In this document: piece by piece, positions 3,700 to 29,130 of the stretch | How the letters are laid out: every line of letters starts with the position of its first letter | How positions within the stretch are numbered: the stretch's first letter is position 1 | IMG/VR virus record: IMGVR_UViG_3300048852_000016 | Location: 1 to 34,850 of that record | Origin: a virus | Lineage: Duplodnaviria; Caudoviricetes | DNA: 34,850 nt | Reading direction: 5' to 3' (one strand) | Translations under genes and position numbers: made by a program | The notes under the pieces: model-generated | Told to the model about the DNA's origin: nothing | Database searches by the model: none | What the model saw: the letters and a program-made list of their open reading frames with translations, nothing else

Positions 3700-4488
3700 G
3701 TGGCTTTGAAAGCAATCATTGACAGCCTCGACAGTGTCGAGGAGCAGTACCGCTCGCTCTACGAGGAGAAGGACGGCAAGTTCGTTCTCGCAGTAGAGGG
3801 CATTGAAGCCCACCCGGGCGCAGCAGCGCTCAAGTCAGCTCTCGATCGTGTCCGCGGCGAGAAGCGCACTCTCAGCGAAAAGCTTACCACCGCCGAAAGC
3901 CGGCTGGAAGGTCTGCCCGACGATTTCGACGCCGACGCCTACGAGACCCTCCGCACCCAGGCAGAAGGCAAAGAGCCGCCGAAGGCTGATGAGCGCCTCG
4001 AGCGCCAGAAGACCGAGCTCGAAAAGAAGCACGGTATCGAGAAGACGAAGCTGGAGCAGCGCAACGCCAAGCTGGACGCCACGCTGCGCAAGACGCTGAT
4101 CGACGACGGCCTGACAAAGGCGCTGATCGAAGCCGGTGTCTCCAAGGACTTCCTGCCGGCGGCTAAAGCACTGCTCAAGGAGCGCGGCGCGGTGAAGCTG
4201 GTCGAGGAAGACGATGAATTCCACGTCTTTGCTGACGATGGCGTGGACGAACGCACCCCGCTGAAGAAGTTCGTCGCCGATTGGTCCTCTGACGAGGGCA
4301 AACACTTCGTCGCCAAAGCCACCGGTGGCGATGCCAAGGGCGGCGACGGCCGGACATTCACCGACAACCCTTGGGACAGCAGCAACGGCAAAAAGCCGAA
4401 CCTGACCAAGCAACAGCAGCTCATCCAGGAGAACGCGGCAAAGGCCCGCCAGATGGCGCAGGCGGCCGGCGTCACTCCTACCTGGTAA
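3700..4488 (+). CDS. Capsid scaffolding protein
   Basis: MALKAIIDSLDSVEEQYRSLYEEKDGKFVLAVEG start, charged coiled coil, GGDAKGG..NPW..NLTKQ end; between portal and capsid. Confidence 0.75.
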   Translation: MALKAIIDSLDSVEEQYRSLYEEKDGKFVLAVEGIEAHPGAAALKSALDRVRGEKRTLSEKLTTAESRLEGLPDDFDADAYETLRTQAEGKEPPKADERLERQKTELEKKHGIEKTKLEQRNAKLDATLRKTLIDDGLTKALIEAGVSKDFLPAAKALLKERGAVKLVEEDDEFHVFADDGVDERTPLKKFVADWSSDEGKHFVAKATGGDAKGGDGRTFTDNPWDSSNGKKPNLTKQQQLIQENAAKARQMAQAAGVTPTW

Positions 4489-10848: not shown

Positions 10849-11352
10849 ATGGCCCAACTCTATCCGGTGGCTGGCGCCACCTTCTGGATTGGCGGCACTG
10901 CCGTTACCAACGTTCCCGATGATGCTGATCTAGACGCCACCGACTTCACCGGGGTTGTCTGGACTGAGGTCAAAGGCTGGCAGACGATGGGTTCCATCGG
11001 AGACAGCGCCACGCTGATCACCGAATCCATCATCTCCAATGCCCGCGACATCAAGGCGAAGGGAACCCGCAACGCCGGCTCGATGCAGAACAACTTCATC
11101 ATCATGCCGGAAGACCCAGGCCAGATCGCGCTCATCGCGGCCGAGAACAGCCCGTTCAACTTCCCGTTCAAGATCGAGTTCGATGACGCGCCTCCGACTG
11201 GCACGGCTCCCACGCCGACCACGAAGCTCTTCTACGGCATCGTCATGTCCTCGTCCGAGCAGGGCGGCGGCGCAAACACCGCTCGTCTCCTGGCCGGCAC
11301 TGTCGAGATCAATTCGGCAGTGATCACTGTTCCTGCTGATACGGGTGCTTGA
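10849..11352 (+). CDS. Major tail tube protein
   Basis: WTEVKGW..MGSIGD...KAKGTRNAGSM...DPGQIAL; siphovirus tube motifs; strong RBS. Confidence 0.8.
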   Translation: MAQLYPVAGATFWIGGTAVTNVPDDADLDATDFTGVVWTEVKGWQTMGSIGDSATLITESIISNARDIKAKGTRNAGSMQNNFIIMPEDPGQIALIAAENSPFNFPFKIEFDDAPPTGTAPTPTTKLFYGIVMSSSEQGGGANTARLLAGTVEINSAVITVPADTGA

Positions 11353-12127: not shown

Positions 12128-14887
12128 ATGACCGTTGCCAATCTCGGCTTCAAGATCGACTCCTCGCCGGCATCATCGGCCGCCCTGGATCTCGACAAGC
12201 TGACAGCTGCCGCCAGTCGTACACAGATGGCCGCTGACAAGCTCGAGGCTGAAGTGGCAAGCCTTGGCGCATCCTTGGGCAAGTCGGGGCAGGGCGCGCG
12301 CGGTGCGCAGGCCCCGGTCGATGCCCTCGGTCGATCCTTCGGCACGCAAGACGATCACGTTCGGTCGTTCCGGATGGAGATTGAGCGGCTTACGTTGAAG
12401 TATCAGCCTCTTGCTCAGGCAACGCGGGCCTACGAGACATCAGTGGGCGAGATCAACCGGGCTCATCAGCTCGGCGTGATCAATGCCCAGCAGATGCAGC
12501 GGGCTCTGGAAGGAGAGCGTCAGGCTTTCGAGCGGCTTCGCTCCTCCGCAAATGGAGCAAGCCAAGCCGTCACAGCCGCGAACCAGAACAGGGGAGGTGC
12601 GCAGGGCTTCAATGCTGCCAATGCAGGTTATCAGTTTCAGGACATCGCTGTAACGGCAGCGATGGGTATGAACCCGCTCATGATCGGCCTACAGCAGGGA
12701 ACGCAGCTTGCCTCCGTCGTCTCCTCGATGGAAAAGCCCGTGGCTGGTCTCGCAACCGCGTTTGCGTCTCTGTTAAGCCCTGTATCGCTGATAACTATCG
12801 GCCTCACCGCCGGCACCGCTGCACTGGTCCAGTACTTCATGTCTGGCAGCGAAGGATCGGACGGAATGAGCGACGATTTGCGGGAGCAGATCGACCTCAT
12901 TGCCAAGGTCGCGGAACGCTGGGGAGACGCGACCCCTCGGCTCAAAGAGTACGCTGATGAAGCAGTCCGCATGGCTGAGGCGAACGAACGTCTTGCTGCT
13001 GGCAATGCTCTTGCCGCTTCCGAGTTTGAGAAGGTCGAAGACGTCCTTGGCACGATCAATGCAGAATACACGGCGGCAATCCGGTCCCTTCGAGGCTATG
13101 GCGAGGATGCCGCGCCGATCATCCGGGGCCTGACGACTAGCTTCACCGAGCTTCAGACGAAGATCCTTGAAGGCAAGGCCACTACAGATGACCTGACAGC
13201 GGTGCAGAACGCGATGGCGGCTGCACTTGAGGGAGGAGCCACCCCTGCCGTCCAGAAGCTGCTGGAGGTCTTTACGGACCTTGTGCCGAAGATCCAGGCA
13301 GCAACCGATGCCGCCGCTGAGTTCCGTAAGGAAGGCTCCGGTTCGATATGGCCCGAATTAGGCACCCTTCCGGGGTTGTTCTCCGATGGCGGGCGGATGT
13401 TCTCGCCCAACGACTTCATCCCTCGCAATGCGCCTGTTCCCAGCCGACGCCCCCTGATCGAGTTGGAGGGAGATGGTTCACGCCCCGGCGCCCCTACCAT
13501 TATCAACTCCGATGGACGGCTGACGGCAGTTCCGGTGCCAGGTCAGCGTCCCAACTATTTCGAGCGCGAATCCGATCTCGACTTCGGCTCATCCAAAGCC
13601 AACAAGAACACCTACTGGGGCCGCGACGTTCTGCAGGAGGAAATGCGCCGGCTGGAGATGGGGACGCTCTTCAAGGGCTTCTTCACCGACTTCGGCCAAT
13701 CGCTGCGCGACAACAGCGGAAATCTTGGCAAAGCCCTGATGGAGGGATTGAGCAACTCGGTAATGAATGCGGCCTCGGCGGCATGGGAGAAGGTCGCCAA
13801 CATGGCGGCAAACTACATGCTGAATGCTCTCATGGGGCCGCCCAGCGCCGGTCTGATGAACAAAAGCATCGGCTTCACCGGGGCCAACACCACGCTCGGC
13901 GCGGTTCTCGGTGCAGGTGCGGGTGTCCCGGCCAACAACAACGTGGCCGGCGGGTTCTCCGGCCTCAGCGTCGGCTCTGTCACGCGCGCGCCACTTGGCG
14001 ATATCTCGTCCTATGCCGAGGCCATCAAGTCTATCGAGAGCCGTGGCAGTGGCGGGTATTCAGCCCTCGGGCCAGTCACCCGCAACGGTGACCGTGCCTA
14101 TGGTGCCTACCAGGTCATGGGCAACAACATCGGCCCATGGTCGAAAGAGGCGCTCGGGCAGAGCATATCGGCTCAAGAGTTCCTCAAGAACCCAGGCCTC
14201 CAGGATAAGATCTTCGAGAGCAAGTTCGGCGGCTATGTGGACAAGTATGGTCCGTCAGGTGCCGCGCAGGCATGGTTCGGCGGTCCTGGCTCGGTCGGCA
14301 AAGGTGGCGGCGCCTCGGATATGCTCGGCACGACCGGATCGGCCTATGTCGACAAGTTCAACGATGCCCTCGGGAGTGCCACAGACAACCTCGGAGGCTT
14401 CGGCTCGGGTCTTGGCAAGGTAGCCGAGACTTTTTCCACCAGCGCGTTCCCGGCGGCCCCTGCGGCGGTTGGTGGCGGCGGTGGAGGCGGCGGAATCTTC
14501 AGTTGGCTGGGTGGTCTGTTTGGGGGCGGTGGTGGCAAGCCATCCCTCGCAAAGTATCTCCCCCTCACGGGCCTCTTTGCCGATGGCACCAACTACGCTC
14601 CCGGCGGGATGGCTGTCGTAGGCGAGCGCGGGCCCGAACTGGTCAACCTCCCTGGTGGCTCTCAGGTCTTCGACACGAACCGCAGCGCCCGGATGGTGGG
14701 CGTCAATGAAGGTCGCGGAAATCAGCGGCCACAGCTCAATGTCGTCGTTCAAGGCGGGAGCGGAGACGATCACGTTCGGGAACTGGCACGGCAGGGCGCT
14801 CAAGAGGCGATCTTCCAATACAACCAGAACCAGACCCGCGGTGGCGTTCTCGATACACAGCAAAAAGCAACTGCAAGGAAAGGCTGA
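12128..14887 (+). CDS. Tape measure protein with lysozyme-like domain
   Basis: 919 aa; YQFQDIAV...NPLMIGLQQGTQ lambda-type N-terminal motif; IKSIES..AYGAYQVM domain; FADG..VVGERGPELV C-terminus. Confidence 0.9.
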   Translation: MTVANLGFKIDSSPASSAALDLDKLTAAASRTQMAADKLEAEVASLGASLGKSGQGARGAQAPVDALGRSFGTQDDHVRSFRMEIERLTLKYQPLAQATRAYETSVGEINRAHQLGVINAQQMQRALEGERQAFERLRSSANGASQAVTAANQNRGGAQGFNAANAGYQFQDIAVTAAMGMNPLMIGLQQGTQLASVVSSMEKPVAGLATAFASLLSPVSLITIGLTAGTAALVQYFMSGSEGSDGMSDDLREQIDLIAKVAERWGDATPRLKEYADEAVRMAEANERLAAGNALAASEFEKVEDVLGTINAEYTAAIRSLRGYGEDAAPIIRGLTTSFTELQTKILEGKATTDDLTAVQNAMAAALEGGATPAVQKLLEVFTDLVPKIQAATDAAAEFRKEGSGSIWPELGTLPGLFSDGGRMFSPNDFIPRNAPVPSRRPLIELEGDGSRPGAPTIINSDGRLTAVPVPGQRPNYFERESDLDFGSSKANKNTYWGRDVLQEEMRRLEMGTLFKGFFTDFGQSLRDNSGNLGKALMEGLSNSVMNAASAAWEKVANMAANYMLNALMGPPSAGLMNKSIGFTGANTTLGAVLGAGAGVPANNNVAGGFSGLSVGSVTRAPLGDISSYAEAIKSIESRGSGGYSALGPVTRNGDRAYGAYQVMGNNIGPWSKEALGQSISAQEFLKNPGLQDKIFESKFGGYVDKYGPSGAAQAWFGGPGSVGKGGGASDMLGTTGSAYVDKFNDALGSATDNLGGFGSGLGKVAETFSTSAFPAAPAAVGGGGGGGGIFSWLGGLFGGGGGKPSLAKYLPLTGLFADGTNYAPGGMAVVGERGPELVNLPGGSQVFDTNRSARMVGVNEGRGNQRPQLNVVVQGGSGDDHVRELARQGAQEAIFQYNQNQTRGGVLDTQQKATARKG

Positions 14888-25471: not shown

Positions 25472-25738
25472 TCATTCGTCGGAGCTATCCGTCGAGGTTG
25501 CGAACCGCACACCATCGCCAGCGGTGCTCGTCTCTCCAGCAGCCACAAAGACAACCCCGGCTTGTTCAATAACCCGAATGAGCGAGGAGATGCTCTGGTA
25601 ATTTCCTGAAAGCGGCCCCGAGCCGCCTTCGTATCGCTTGAGCGTTTGAACCGGCACGTCAGCAGCTTCCGCGAGCGCTCTCTGTTCCATCTTCAGAAGC
25701 GCCCGTGCGGCTCGTAATTGTTCGGCTGTGATGGTCAT
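25472..25738 (-). CDS. XRE family HTH transcriptional regulator
   Basis: ITAEQLRAARALL.MEQ..LAEAA.V...TLKRYE...IEQAGVVF...GVR. Confidence 0.85.
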   Translation of the reverse strand: MTITAEQLRAARALLKMEQRALAEAADVPVQTLKRYEGGSGPLSGNYQSISSLIRVIEQAGVVFVAAGETSTAGDGVRFATSTDSSDE

Positions 25739-25835
25739 AAATGAGCCCTAAGTATCTTTTATGAGATTTAGGTATTGAACTTATAGTCCAGCAGTGCTAC
25801 CTAGGTATCACCACCGATACAAAGGAGCAACCGAA
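25739..25835. promoter_or_regulatory. Divergent promoter/operator region
   Basis: AT-rich; YTARGTAT at 25748, 25768, 25801; palindrome TACCTAGGTA 25798-25807; TTGAAC -35-like at 25775; AAGGAG RBS. Confidence 0.55.
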
Positions 25836-26144
25836 ATGTTCGACACTGCAAAGATCATGAAGGACGCATGGAGCATCTACCGCCGCAACTGGTGCGGTGC
25901 TCGCCCTGCTACTGAGGCACTTCGCCTCAAGGAATTCGGCAAGGCTCTCCGCAATGCCTGGGTATGGGCAAAGCAGGAAGTGACCGAAGTCGCAAAGACC
26001 GCAGCCGAGAAGTTTGGTGAGCAGATCGCCGCTCTCAAGGTTGAGCTGGACCGGATCGACGCTCGCCCGTTCGGGATGCGCATCGAGGCTGACCGCGCTG
26101 TTGTGGTTGCTCGTATCGCTACTATCTCTCGGAGGGCAGCATAA
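25836..26144 (+). CDS. Hypothetical phage protein
   Basis: MFDTAKIMKDAW...FGKALRNAW..AK; strong RBS. Confidence 0.75.
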   Translation: MFDTAKIMKDAWSIYRRNWCGARPATEALRLKEFGKALRNAWVWAKQEVTEVAKTAAEKFGEQIAALKVELDRIDARPFGMRIEADRAVVVARIATISRRAA

Positions 26145-26329
26145 TGGATAACGTTCTTCTCTCTCAGATCGCTCGCAGCCCCGTTGTGGCGGCCTTCTTC
26201 GCCCGTGGTGAGCGTGACAATGGTGGTGCGTTTGCCGTTCCGTCTCCTCGTGATCCCAACTTAATCGGTAGCGCAGGCGCATCGCTTCGGTGGCGCGTCC
26301 AGCTCGAGGCTGCGAGGGCAGACGCATGA
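26144..26329 (+). CDS. Small hypothetical protein
   Basis: TAATG coupling upstream and ATGA coupling downstream. Confidence 0.5.
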   Translation: MDNVLLSQIARSPVVAAFFARGERDNGGAFAVPSPRDPNLIGSAGASLRWRVQLEAARADA

Positions 26330-26622
26330 ACGCTCTCGTTCGCATTGAGAAATTTCGCCGTGTAGCGTTGGAAGAGTACATCGAGCGGCTTATCGCTTTG
26401 CTCGACAACTTGGACGGGGACCAAGACCTAGAAGATGGCTCTGATGCCGAGCCTGAGGAAACTGACCAAGATGGTGATGAGCAAGACTGCTCACATTCGG
26501 AAGAGGAGTGGTCGCCTCACTCGAATGGCGCACTGCGCTGGGATGGCCTGGGCGTCAATATCGCAAATGATCTGCTTGGTGGGCTGCCAGATGCCGCGCG
26601 CCGGCGGGAGCCGGCACTATGA
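26326..26622 (+). CDS. Acidic hypothetical phage protein
   Basis: IERLIALLDNLDGDQDLED motif; ATGA overlaps both sides. Confidence 0.65.
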   Translation: MNALVRIEKFRRVALEEYIERLIALLDNLDGDQDLEDGSDAEPEETDQDGDEQDCSHSEEEWSPHSNGALRWDGLGVNIANDLLGGLPDAARRREPAL

Positions 26623-26999
26623 ACCGGCGCACCATCTTGAAAGCGGGCGCAGCATTGGCAGCTAGCTCCAACAGCTCGATTTCGACCGCGGCCGCAACAG
26701 CGGATGAGAACCCATACGAGCGCATCCGCCGATTGAGTAATGAGCTTTCGGAAGCGTTGGTGGATGTGCCTCAGTACGAGTACGTCATGGTGAGGCCCGA
26801 TAAGGACGAATATCCTGTACTTATCGCCTATCGAGGTCCGTCCAGCGCAGAAGCTATGGCGAAGGTACACTTCTCGGAGTATCGCCGCGCCATGCAGATG
26901 ATCGACCCCAGCATTAAAGGCTGGTCCGTTTATCATCCGATAGACGACGACGATTGCCGGGTGATGATCACGGCGAGTTCGAAGCCGATCAAGAAATAA
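26619..26999 (+). CDS. Hypothetical protein with twin-arginine-like N-terminus
   Basis: MNRRTILKAGAALAAS; ATGA-coupled. Confidence 0.6.
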   Translation: MNRRTILKAGAALAASSNSSISTAAATADENPYERIRRLSNELSEALVDVPQYEYVMVRPDKDEYPVLIAYRGPSSAEAMAKVHFSEYRRAMQMIDPSIKGWSVYHPIDDDDCRVMITASSKPIKK

Positions 27000-27122
27000 C
27001 TGAAATTCCCCGCTGCCATGGGGATGTAACGCGAACGACGAGCTTCATAGGCTCCGGCGTTCGTGAAAGCGAACCCCTGTGCGTTACCGGGCTTGGCAGG
27101 CCGGACGCCTATGGAGACTGAA

Positions 27123-27782
27123 ATGGCTACTGCAAAACAAGACGTAGGGATCGAACTGCCGCCGCTTGCAATCCAGTTGATGGAAGTGACTGTAGTTGGA
27201 GATAGCCCCCTGATCGTCCACGCATGGTCTGAGAAGGCTAAGAAGGAAATGCTCGGCAAGCAGATGAAGACCGCCAAGCAGGCAAAGGAAGCGAAAGATC
27301 CACGGGCAGACTTTGAAAGCTCGCTGTACCGCCTTGGGGATGGCTACGGCTTCCCCTCCATCGGCTTCAAGGCTGCAGCCGTCACGGCCTGCACATCGGT
27401 CGCCGGGATCACAAAGGTTGCGGCTCGACAGGCGTTCCACATCCTGGGCGAAGACATTGACATCAAAGGCGCGTTCGAAGGCACAAAGGCGCGCGTCAAC
27501 CTCGTTCGGATCAACGGCGGGGCACCTTCTATGCGCGAGGATATGGTGCGGGTTGGCATGGGAACAGCTGACCTTCGGTATCGCGGCGAATTCGCAGACT
27601 GGCACGCAAAACTGTTGGTCCGCTACAACGCCAATGTCCTGAGCGAAAGTCAGATCCTGAACATCATCAACGTGGCCGGGTTCGCCGTTGGGGTTGGGGA
27701 ATGGCGACCTGAGAAGGATGGCATGAGCGGAATGTTCCACGTGGCTACCGAGCGCGACATGGCGAAGCTGGAGGCGGCATGA
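27123..27782 (+). CDS. Stand-alone Cas7/RAMP-like protein
   Basis: 219 aa; N-terminal strand VTVVGDSPLIVH, FPSIGFKAA helix, VRVG..DLRYR.EF..W hairpin, C-terminal Gly-rich loop AGFAVGVGEWRPEKDGMSGMFHV; GGAG RBS. Confidence 0.75.
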   Translation: MATAKQDVGIELPPLAIQLMEVTVVGDSPLIVHAWSEKAKKEMLGKQMKTAKQAKEAKDPRADFESSLYRLGDGYGFPSIGFKAAAVTACTSVAGITKVAARQAFHILGEDIDIKGAFEGTKARVNLVRINGGAPSMREDMVRVGMGTADLRYRGEFADWHAKLLVRYNANVLSESQILNIINVAGFAVGVGEWRPEKDGMSGMFHVATERDMAKLEAA

Positions 27783-28300
27783 TGCGAATCGCGGGCTTTG
27801 AATTCTCAGAAGGCGCCCGCTTCCAGTCGGGAGCACATCCGGACGCTAACGTGGTTGGGCGTCACATCGAAATGCTACGGGAGAAGTTTAAGGGGGAAAT
27901 CACGCCTCAGGACATTCTCGAGGATGCTAGGCACGATAACTCCCCGCTCCACTCGTTCTTCGAGTGGGACGACAGCGCTGCCGCCGAACACTATAGGCTG
28001 CAGCAGGCCAGAGGGCTTATTCGAGCGGTTGTTGCTGTCTATGTTCGCGACGACAAGCCTGCAGTGCGGACGAGGGCATACGTCCATGTTCCGGAACCAT
28101 CGGCTCCTCACTACCGAGAAGCTACTCACGCTATGTCTCAGGCAAAGACCAGAAAGATGGTCCTCGACCGCGCCATGAACGAGCTGCGAGCTTGGAAAGC
28201 AAAGTACCGAGACCTTGAAGAGTTCGCGGCACTGGTCAAGATCATCGACACGGTCGAAGAAGACTTCCCCCGGTCACTAGAGAAGATCGGCAGGAACTAA
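27779..28300 (+). CDS. Hypothetical phage protein, partner of Cas7-like gene
   Basis: ATGA-coupled; ITPQDILEDAR..NSPLHSFFEWDD..AA..YRLQQAR.LI motif. Confidence 0.75.
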   Translation: MMRIAGFEFSEGARFQSGAHPDANVVGRHIEMLREKFKGEITPQDILEDARHDNSPLHSFFEWDDSAAAEHYRLQQARGLIRAVVAVYVRDDKPAVRTRAYVHVPEPSAPHYREATHAMSQAKTRKMVLDRAMNELRAWKAKYRDLEEFAALVKIIDTVEEDFPRSLEKIGRN

Positions 28301-28306
28301 AGGCGG

Positions 28307-28477
28307 AACCGGATGCCCGTCCGGTTGGCAAGGATCATGGTAGGGCAGGCAAGTTCAGGTTGGGTAAGGCTAGGTTCGGTGGGTTGCGGTTTGGCTGGCA
28401 AGGCCAGCTTAGGTGGGGCGCGTATGGGCATGGCAGGGCACGTTCTGGTACGTGCCGCCGACCATCTGGTGGCGGGC
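28307..28477 (+). ncRNA. Putative guide-like ncRNA: 5' hairpin, GGY-NN pentamer array, 3' hairpin
   Basis: Hairpin AACCGGAT-gccc-GTCCGGTT (28307-28326); 21 pentamer units 28348-28451 all starting with G, 16 with GGY; hairpin CCGCC..ACC-atct-GGT-GGCGG (28455-28475). Confidence 0.7.
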
Positions 28478-29130
28478 TATATCCGGAGCATGTCCGAACG
28501 CCAAAGCGCTATGCGGTCAGACGGCACGGCTGGCTCGAAGGCGTTGATGATATCATGATGTACGGAGGCGAGTTCAGCGACTGACTGAAGGTTCAAGCTG
28601 TACCCAACATGCTCTCCATTGATAAAAAACAGGAATTTGTCTCCCATTCTCACGCGCCCTCCCATCATGGTAGTGCCTGGGCCTCCGATAGATACAGTTC
28701 CCAAGTGTAGCCCACCGGTCAGTTGGTTCTTAGCTTGCGCTTGAGGATCCTTGTAAAGTTCTCCGTCGTGGGCAATGGCGTGCCGGAGATCCTGCCATTT
28801 TGGAAAGGCTTTGTTGAAGCGTTTACCGGCTTGACGCCTTTTTTTATGATCGACTAGATCTCTAACAGTGGGAATGCCATTCAGATTTGTCACGAGGTTT
28901 TCGAGCGTGCATCCAAAGTGGTAAATGGTCATTGCCGCGTCTCGCGCAGGGATCCAGGTCCAGTCTCTGATCCCCGCCGCAGCTTCTGCCCAATCCCTGC
29001 AGAAACAGTAGAGCGAAAGCGCGTTACGGAAGTCTTTCTGATAGCTCTTGAGCCTAGAAAGGTGAAAGTCGAGCAGCTTCGCTGACTCACTTTCATCCCT
29101 TGTGGAGTTATAGAAATCATAGAAGTGCAT
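28477..29130 (-). CDS. Hypothetical protein (AT-richer moron)
   Basis: 217 aa ORF; IPARDAAMTIYHF...F...FP....LRHAIAH (RxxxxH, HEPN-like). Confidence 0.65.
   Translation of the reverse strand: MHFYDFYNSTRDESESAKLLDFHLSRLKSYQKDFRNALSLYCFCRDWAEAAAGIRDWTWIPARDAAMTIYHFGCTLENLVTNLNGIPTVRDLVDHKKRRQAGKRFNKAFPKWQDLRHAIAHDGELYKDPQAQAKNQLTGGLHLGTVSIGGPGTTMMGGRVRMGDKFLFFINGEHVGYSLNLQSVAELASVHHDIINAFEPAVPSDRIALWRSDMLRI

What the first reader, a model, noticed from the sequence alone, without database searches (positions are those of the whole stretch)
28323..28451. Strict 5-nt GGY-NN array split into units by a GGY-W-GGC-AA-G phase-shift motif
Seen directly. Unit A 28348-28396: GGC AA, GTT CA, GGT TG, GGT AA, GGC TA, GGT TC, GGT GG, GTT GC, GGT TT, GGC T. 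Unit B 28397-28451: GGC AA, GGC CA, GCT TA, GGT GG, GGC GC, GTA TG, GGC AT, GGC AG, GGC AC, GTT CT, GGT AC. All 21 units start with G and 16 are GGY, while the dinucleotides vary, unlike a slippage microsatellite. A 4-nt step resets the phase at the same motif three times: GGTTGGCAAG 28323, GGCAGGCAAG 28344, GGCTGGCAAG 28393. Inference: the motif marks guide boundaries or processing sites, giving two guides of about 50 nt plus a short degenerate unit.
Basis: seen in the sequence. Interest (0 to 1): 0.93.

Follow-up and report, generated by a model that had tools for sequence, protein, structure and literature searches.

The report
Staggered VIPR guide array in phage
This five-letter repeat is the guide-RNA array of an already described phage system (VIPR), with two back-to-back guides that likely steer a Cas7-like protein to silence rival phages, behind a conserved folded RNA leader whose role is untested.

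Summary
The repeat is real: 8 of 10 pentamers are GGY in phase, against at most 5 in 40 simulations. It is the vrRNA array of a known VIPR system. Upstream lie a Vipr gene (only PDB sequence hit: SUSP1 Vipr, E 6.5e-10) and a conserved partner gene. The 4-nt phase step fits the published 'staggered' array.

Twenty loci of the clade (this one included) share the layout, with a fixed scaffold and near-random NN. With the published 1-nt skip code, 15 of 82 clade guides match related phages at 90% or better (0 with skip 0 or 2; 1 of 246 shuffles). Neighbouring units hit separate sites, and two relatives' guides match this phage's own tail genes perfectly. No target was found for this window's two guides.

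A second, pseudoknotted leader type occurs in relatives. Neither matches Rfam or appears in the VIPR texts searched. The scan reported this clade before on other DNA. Verdict: new member of a known kind.

The parts
27114..27782 (+). vipr gene, 222 aa from the ATG at 27114, RAMP/Cas7-like guide-binding protein
   Evidence: Only PDB sequence hit is SUSP1 Vipr 36pp_D (E 1.4e-4 single sequence; E 6.5e-10 profile). Model pLDDT 84.7; top Foldseek hits are type III CRISPR Csm/Cmr chains, TM 0.37-0.49. R157, W197, R198 are invariant and E196 nearly so; they align with SUSP1 R138, W178, R179 and D177, the GGY-binding residues named in 10.64898/2026.04.26.720927.
27779..28300 (+). vap-like accessory gene, 173 aa, overlapping the vipr stop
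   Evidence: A homologue lies downstream of vipr in all 26 loci. No Pfam hit; PHROG 15946, unknown function. Model pLDDT 88.6; weak winged-helix-type matches for residues about 3-117 (MecI Z 5.6, rmsd 3.1, 71 aligned; no Z of 8 or more), so the fold is inconclusive.
28301..28347 (+). conserved structured 5' leader (type A): hairpin arms 28307-28313 and 28320-28326; loop GCCC (28315-18) complementary to GGGC (28343-46); ends in the GGCA step
   Evidence: 18 of 18 viral matches precede a GGY-NN array in a vipr locus. In 15 distinct sequences the stem has 3 of 7 pairs with compensatory change; the 4 pseudoknot pairs show no covariation. No Rfam match. Single-sequence folding energy is not unusual (z +0.52).
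28348..28396 (+). vrRNA unit A: nine GGY-NN repeats plus terminal GGCT step
   Evidence: Sequence; same layout in relatives. No target found.
28397..28451 (+). vrRNA unit B: eleven repeats, the last array unit
   Evidence: Sequence. No target found.
11053..11078 (+). site in this phage's major tail protein gene matched 18/18 by a relative's guide (L001, unit at 4312), skipped base at the wobble position
   Evidence: gene 10849-11352 is PHROG 158, major tail protein.
14588..14610 (+). site in this phage's tape-measure gene matched 16/16 by a relative's guide (L014, unit at 4325), skipped base at the wobble position
   Evidence: gene 12128-14887 is a tape measure protein.

Best explanation
The repeat is a staggered VIPR guide array lying directly behind a Vipr gene and its partner gene; it is likely co-transcribed with them, and each roughly 50-nt unit is predicted to act as a separate guide that directs Vipr to silence a rival phage's DNA. 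Shown here: the repeat, the Vipr homology, the conserved layout, and that clade guides match related phages only under the 1-nt skip code, mostly with the skip on the wobble base. Taken from the VIPR preprints: one Vipr protomer binds each pentamer and hides GGY, the NN pairs read DNA as NN-x-NN-x, and binding represses transcription. Inferred: the 4-nt GGC-W step breaks the filament register, so the junction is exposed and cut by a host RNase or by Vipr, releasing single guides. Also inferred: the structured leader ending in the same GGCA step sets and protects the 5' end of the first guide. Guides A and B most likely aim at alphaproteobacterial phages not held in the collections searched.
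For: Vipr hit and conserved GGY-binding residues; Cas7-like fold. 56 unique units from 20 loci: entropy 0.32, 1.09, 1.25 bits at scaffold positions and 1.93, 1.88 bits at NN; step GGCA 60 and GGCT 8 of 71. Target test on 88 loci (1.84 Mb, both strands): 9 of 82 guides perfect and 15 of 82 at 90% or better with skip 1; 0 of 82 with skip 0 or 2; 1 of 246 shuffled. Against the window alone, 2 of 54 relatives' guides are perfect with skip 1, none with skips 0, 2 or 3, and 0 of 1080 shuffled. 14 of those 15 best sites are stop-free in the NN-x codon register, 13 on the sense strand and 1 antisense. Consecutive units of L006 and of L023 hit separate sites. Staggered arrays with 1-nt overlap are described in fig. 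S18 of 10.64898/2026.04.26.720920.
Against: No target above chance for either of the window's own guides: best 14/18 and 17/22 in related loci; genome hits equal to reversed-pattern controls, 4 vs 6 and 2 vs 1. 67 of 82 clade guides have no match at 90% or better. The array has only two units and no U-tailed terminator was called after it, unlike several relatives. The preprint text lists sRNA-seq support for ribozyme and single-guide loci, not for staggered arrays. The invariant 3' tail described for the characterised systems is not evident on these units.
Confidence: 0.92

Rival explanations
1. Same VIPR system, but the array is not cut: one long RNA carries several Vipr filaments, and the 4-nt step only insulates neighbouring guides by resetting the register.
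For: The target data show independent guides, not separate molecules. No nuclease gene is evident in the operon. The paper text claims no sRNA-seq for staggered arrays.
Against: The fig. S18 legend speaks of individual processed vrRNAs, and the characterised arrays give discrete RNAs. The leader ends in the same GGCA step as internal junctions in 15 of 15 type-A and 13 of 13 type-B sequences, as expected of a shared cut signal.
Confidence: 0.25
2. A genuine but decaying VIPR array whose two guides no longer match anything, left after replacement of the 3' end by the convergent 217-aa gene.
For: No targets found. Only two units, no called terminator, and an unrelated gene ending at 28477.
Against: vipr and vap are intact and close to relatives (96% and 87% best identity). 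The scaffold is as clean as in relatives, 16 of 21 GGY. The leader keeps all stem pairs. Most relatives' guides also lack hits in this small sample.
Confidence: 0.12
3. A microsatellite, or a by-product of the 81-aa Gly-rich ORF at 28313-28558.
For: An open frame does span the repeat.
Against: The period is 5, not 3. NN are near maximal entropy and unit counts vary between relatives; no relative shares more than 3 NN in register with unit A or B. No Pfam hit. Clade units decode to real phage genes.
Confidence: 0.01

Closest known systems
VIPR systems with staggered vrRNA arrays (bioRxiv 10.64898/2026.04.26.720920, fig. S18; whole text and legends read, figures not visible)
   Same: vipr plus one accessory gene in a phage; GGY/NN units of 9-13 repeats; the end of one unit overlaps the start of the next by 1 nt; 1-nt skip code with wobble skip; targets in competing phages.
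   Different: Nothing shown to differ. The text names no type, host or leader for staggered arrays, so I cannot tell whether this clade is the one pictured. The two structured 5' leaders are not in the text.
Type II VIPR of Escherichia phage SUSP1 and the Pseudomonas fulva prophage (same preprint; structures in 10.64898/2026.04.26.720927, part 1 of 6 and passages read)
   Same: Vipr homology with the GGY-contacting thumb Arg and G-loop acidic-Trp-Arg; same code; inter-phage targets.
   Different: SUSP1 vrRNAs are about 100 nt, each with an invariant 3' tail (a pseudoknot). Here units are about 50 nt, abut directly, carry no individual tail, and the structured element lies 5' of the array.
Class 1 CRISPR Cas7/Csm3 backbone
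   Same: RAMP fold with thumb and G-loop.
   Different: No repeat-spacer array and no cas gene among the 26 ORFs scanned; gapped rather than contiguous pairing.

Membership tests
VIPR | Stand-alone RAMP homologue (Vipr) with thumb and G-loop | tested here: met
   (SUSP1 Vipr the only hit)
VIPR | Minimal locus: vipr plus an accessory gene, no CRISPR array or cas genes, phage-borne | tested here: met
   the record is a virus
VIPR | Tandem pentamers, conserved GGY and hypervariable NN, 9-16 repeats | tested here: met
VIPR | NN decode to DNA targets by a 1-nt skip (clade level) | tested here: met
VIPR | NN decode to a natural target for this window's own guides | tested here: inconclusive
   No hit above chance
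VIPR | No self-targeting | tested here: met
   Best self match 13/18 and 15/22; 0 of 15 strong clade hits fell in the guide's own fetched segments (own genomes only partly held)
VIPR | vrRNA expressed, bound by Vipr, represses transcription | not testable with these tools
   Needs sRNA-seq, pull-down and a reporter assay
Staggered VIPR array (fig. S18) | Consecutive guides overlapping by 1 nt, that is a 4-nt step | tested here: met
   71 steps in the loci parsed, 68 of them GGC-W; separate targets for consecutive units
Type II VIPR (SUSP1/P. fulva) | Invariant structured 3' tail on each vrRNA | tested here: not met
   Units abut without a tail, and 3' flanks differ between loci
VIPR type I-VII assignment | Placement in the published Vipr tree and vap class | not testable with these tools
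   Data S4 and figures not visible; vap fold inconclusive
Ribozyme-interspersed VIPR array / known Rfam ribozymes | Hammerhead or other curated ribozyme next to the guides | tested here: inconclusive
   No Rfam match at gathering score in 9 related loci, and none over the leader at E up to 5; uncurated ribozyme variants are not excluded

The most novel reading that the evidence does not exclude
The two unrelated, interchangeable 5' leaders (type A here; type B, a covarying pseudoknot, in relatives) are self-cleaving RNAs of an undescribed class. They would release the guide array from the vipr-vap message at the GGCA step, doing the job hammerheads do in other VIPR arrays.
Probability: 0.08. 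Interest if true: 0.75.

Novelty: new member of a known kind. Interest (0 to 1): 0.3.

Why it matters
The system and the staggered layout are in print, so the locus is not a surprise. It is useful as a very small test case (two genes, a 47-nt leader, two guides) for a layout whose processing the preprint text does not report as tested. The clade data give sequence evidence that the 4-nt step separates independent guides and that these tail-less 50-nt guides follow the 1-nt skip code against kin phages. If multiplex release from such arrays is confirmed, it is a compact format for several guides on one transcript. The leaders are the only part that may be undescribed.

Tried and rejected
Targets for unit A:
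- 1 exact viral hit, out of codon register in its ORF.
- 18 exact metagenome hits with no recurring phage-like in-frame site; I judged them chance from the flanking translations.
- 91 seed hits, of which 14 reach 17/18 or more; only one of these is stop-free in register, in a 35% GC contig.
- 2 of 401 genomes of the family of G002, against 1 control hit; 0 of 45 related virus records at up to 3 mismatches.

Targets for unit B:
- One 4-contig viral cluster at 18/22 with a stop in register.
- 4 of 401 genomes against 6 control hits; 0 of 3 genomes; 2 near-identical records of 45 at 15/18; 0 metagenome hits.

Other attempts:
- No RNA holder was listed, so no reads were laid.
- Rfam gave nothing for the leader.
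- Tandem Repeats Finder misses the array.
- Single-strand folding of the leader, the units and the 3' hairpin is no better than shuffles.
- ESM Atlas gave only unnamed viral clusters for vap.
- The fold search for vap gave no Z of 8 or more.
- An HDV-like reading of either leader was considered and dropped on recalled topology, not on a call: type A has no P3/L3 and type B has the wrong helix order.
- No relative's guide matches this window's VIPR locus above 14/18.

Rows dropped: L012, L017 and L018 (duplicates), L004, L024 and L025 (distant, different layout) and L019 (no downstream DNA) were left out of the unit statistics. Units outside 8-13 repeats, including three mis-parsed or fused ones, were not used as guides.

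Full report
Observation. The signal is unique in the 34,850-base record. All 20 ten-pentamer windows with five or more in-phase GGY start at 28323-28417 (best 8 of 10). The minus strand peaks at 4, and 40 Markov simulations peak at 4-5. GG autocorrelation is 0.38-0.45 at lags 5, 10, 15 and 20, against about 0.08-0.10 overall.

Setting. The record is a virus with terminase, capsid, major tail, tape measure and endolysin genes. Named close relatives of the upstream protein come from Sinorhizobium, Phyllobacterium, Rhizobium and Agrobacterium, and genome loci from Mesorhizobium, Phyllobacterium and Martelella. A Rhizobiales host is therefore inferred, not shown. The array begins 48 bases after the stop of a two-gene operon, 27114-27782 and 27779-28300.

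The proteins. The first protein has one sequence relative in the PDB, SUSP1 Vipr (E 1.4e-4; E 6.5e-10 with a 30-sequence profile). Its model matches type III CRISPR Csm/Cmr chains at TM about 0.4-0.5. R157, E196, W197 and R198 are conserved and align with SUSP1 R138, D177, W178 and R179, which contact GGY in the cryo-EM structures (10.64898/2026.04.26.720927). The second protein follows vipr in all 26 related loci. It has no Pfam hit and only weak winged-helix-type fold matches (Z up to 5.6), so I call it vap-like on synteny.

What is published. VIPR was described in 10.64898/2026.04.26.720920 (whole text read; supplement passages and part 5 of 5; figures and data files not visible). It has guides of alternating GGY and NN that are read against DNA with one skipped base, usually the wobble base, and it represses competing phages. 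The paper lists 'staggered arrays' whose guides overlap by 1 nt (fig. S18), which equals a 4-nt step. Its text reports sRNA-seq for ribozyme-interspersed and single-guide loci, not for staggered ones. I also saw part 1 of 8 and passages of 10.64898/2026.10.15.759431, part 1 of 6 and passages of the structure paper, and passages of 10.64898/2026.10.21.760802.

Comparative test. In 20 loci including the window, 56 unique units of 8-13 repeats give entropies of 0.32, 1.09 and 1.25 bits at scaffold positions and 1.93 and 1.88 at NN (dropped rows are listed under Tried and rejected). Of 71 four-base steps, 60 are GGCA and 8 GGCT. What follows varies (GGCAA 19 of 71), so the junction is GGC-W|GGC and the 'AA' is guide content. 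No relative shares more than 3 NN in register with unit A or B.

Code test. Two of 54 relatives' guides match this window perfectly with a 1-nt skip: 18/18 at 11053 in the major tail gene and 16/16 at 14588 in the tape measure gene, both with the skip on the wobble base. Skips 0, 2 and 3 gave none, and 0 of 1080 shuffles reached 90%. Against 88 fetched loci (1.84 Mb over both strands, partly redundant), 9 of 82 guides are perfect and 15 reach 90% or more with skip 1. None do with skip 0 or 2, and 1 of 246 shuffles does. Fourteen of the 15 sites are stop-free in the NN-x register; the exception is a 7-NN unit that is probably chance. Consecutive units of L006 and of L023 hit separate sites. In 0 of 12 strong guides ending in a step does the target continue with the overlap dinucleotide. 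So each unit is an independent guide and the terminal GGC-W is not read. One guide (L006 at 4234, 17/18) matches the vap gene of relatives, an anti-VIPR aim.

Against the reading. The window's own guides have no target above chance. This holds for IMG/VR, JGI metagenomes, 401 genomes of a Rhizobiales family sample (4 vs 6 and 2 vs 1 control hits) and 45 related virus records. Sixty-seven of 82 clade guides lack a strong match too, so sparse sampling is a sufficient reason, but decay is not excluded. The array is short, no terminator was called behind it, and a convergent 217-aa gene ends at 28477.

The leader. A pattern for it finds 18 viral loci, all 18 directly before a GGY-NN array in a vipr locus. 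In 15 distinct copies its 7-bp stem is 98% paired with three compensatory pairs. The loop GCCC is complementary to the GGGC just before unit A but shows no covariation, so that pseudoknot is only possible. The pattern presupposed some of these bases, which inflates their apparent conservation. Other relatives use an unrelated leader (type B, 13 copies) with covariation in both a stem and a pseudoknot helix (6 of 12 pairs compensatory). I derived both structures from these alignments, so the controls lean in their favour. Both leaders end in GGCA before the first guide, and type B also occurs inside arrays (L006, L007, L026). Neither matches Rfam. No 5' leader is mentioned in the text of the discovery paper, and 'leader' does not occur in that sense in the structure and competition papers. 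Two library searches listed no other VIPR paper, but figs. S17-S18 may show these elements.

Mechanism. Shown: anatomy, homology and the code at clade level. From the preprints: filament assembly, gapped pairing and repression. Inferred: co-transcription, cutting at the out-of-register step, a 5'-end role for the leader, and rival alphaproteobacterial phages as the targets of units A and B.

Verdict. New member of a known kind, interest 0.3. The scan had already reported VIPR loci of this clade in other genomes. I reached the VIPR reading before that look-up and do not count those notes as support.

Noticed in passing
L006:4234-4282 against L005:3966 and L019:3957: A guide matches the vap gene of related VIPR phages at 17/18 (window vap only 14/18), a likely anti-VIPR guide.
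   Followed up: partly
L001:4191-4252 and 12 further copies (alignment A5): Second leader type with a covarying stem and pseudoknot, interchangeable with type A and sometimes inside arrays; no Rfam match.
   Followed up: partly
L001:4312 and L094:1546: Two phages carry different guides that decode to overlapping stretches, apparently the same major-tail-gene site offset by two codons (judged from the shared NN order), suggesting convergence on a conserved spot.
   Followed up: no
L004, L024, L025: Distant Vipr relatives (41-55% identity) place GGY-NN arrays before vipr and/or between vipr and vap; L004 shows GGCA steps too.
   Followed up: no
L084/L091: The type A leader and array sit beside a distant Vipr (31% identity) with no detectable vap homologue, suggesting the leader-array cassette moves between VIPR lineages.
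   Followed up: no
window 25472-25738 (-) and 25794-26999 (+): A small HTH_3 regulator is divergent from a run of small genes leading into vipr-vap, so the VIPR operon may be under its control.
   Followed up: no
window 28477-29130 (-): A 217-aa gene with no Pfam or PHROG hit converges on the array end, where relatives usually have a U-tailed terminator.
   Followed up: partly
L051-L069 tail-protein loci: Many related major tail genes carry an insert of about 220-240 nt relative to the window's gene, and L014's first guide targets that region on the opposite strand.
   Followed up: no
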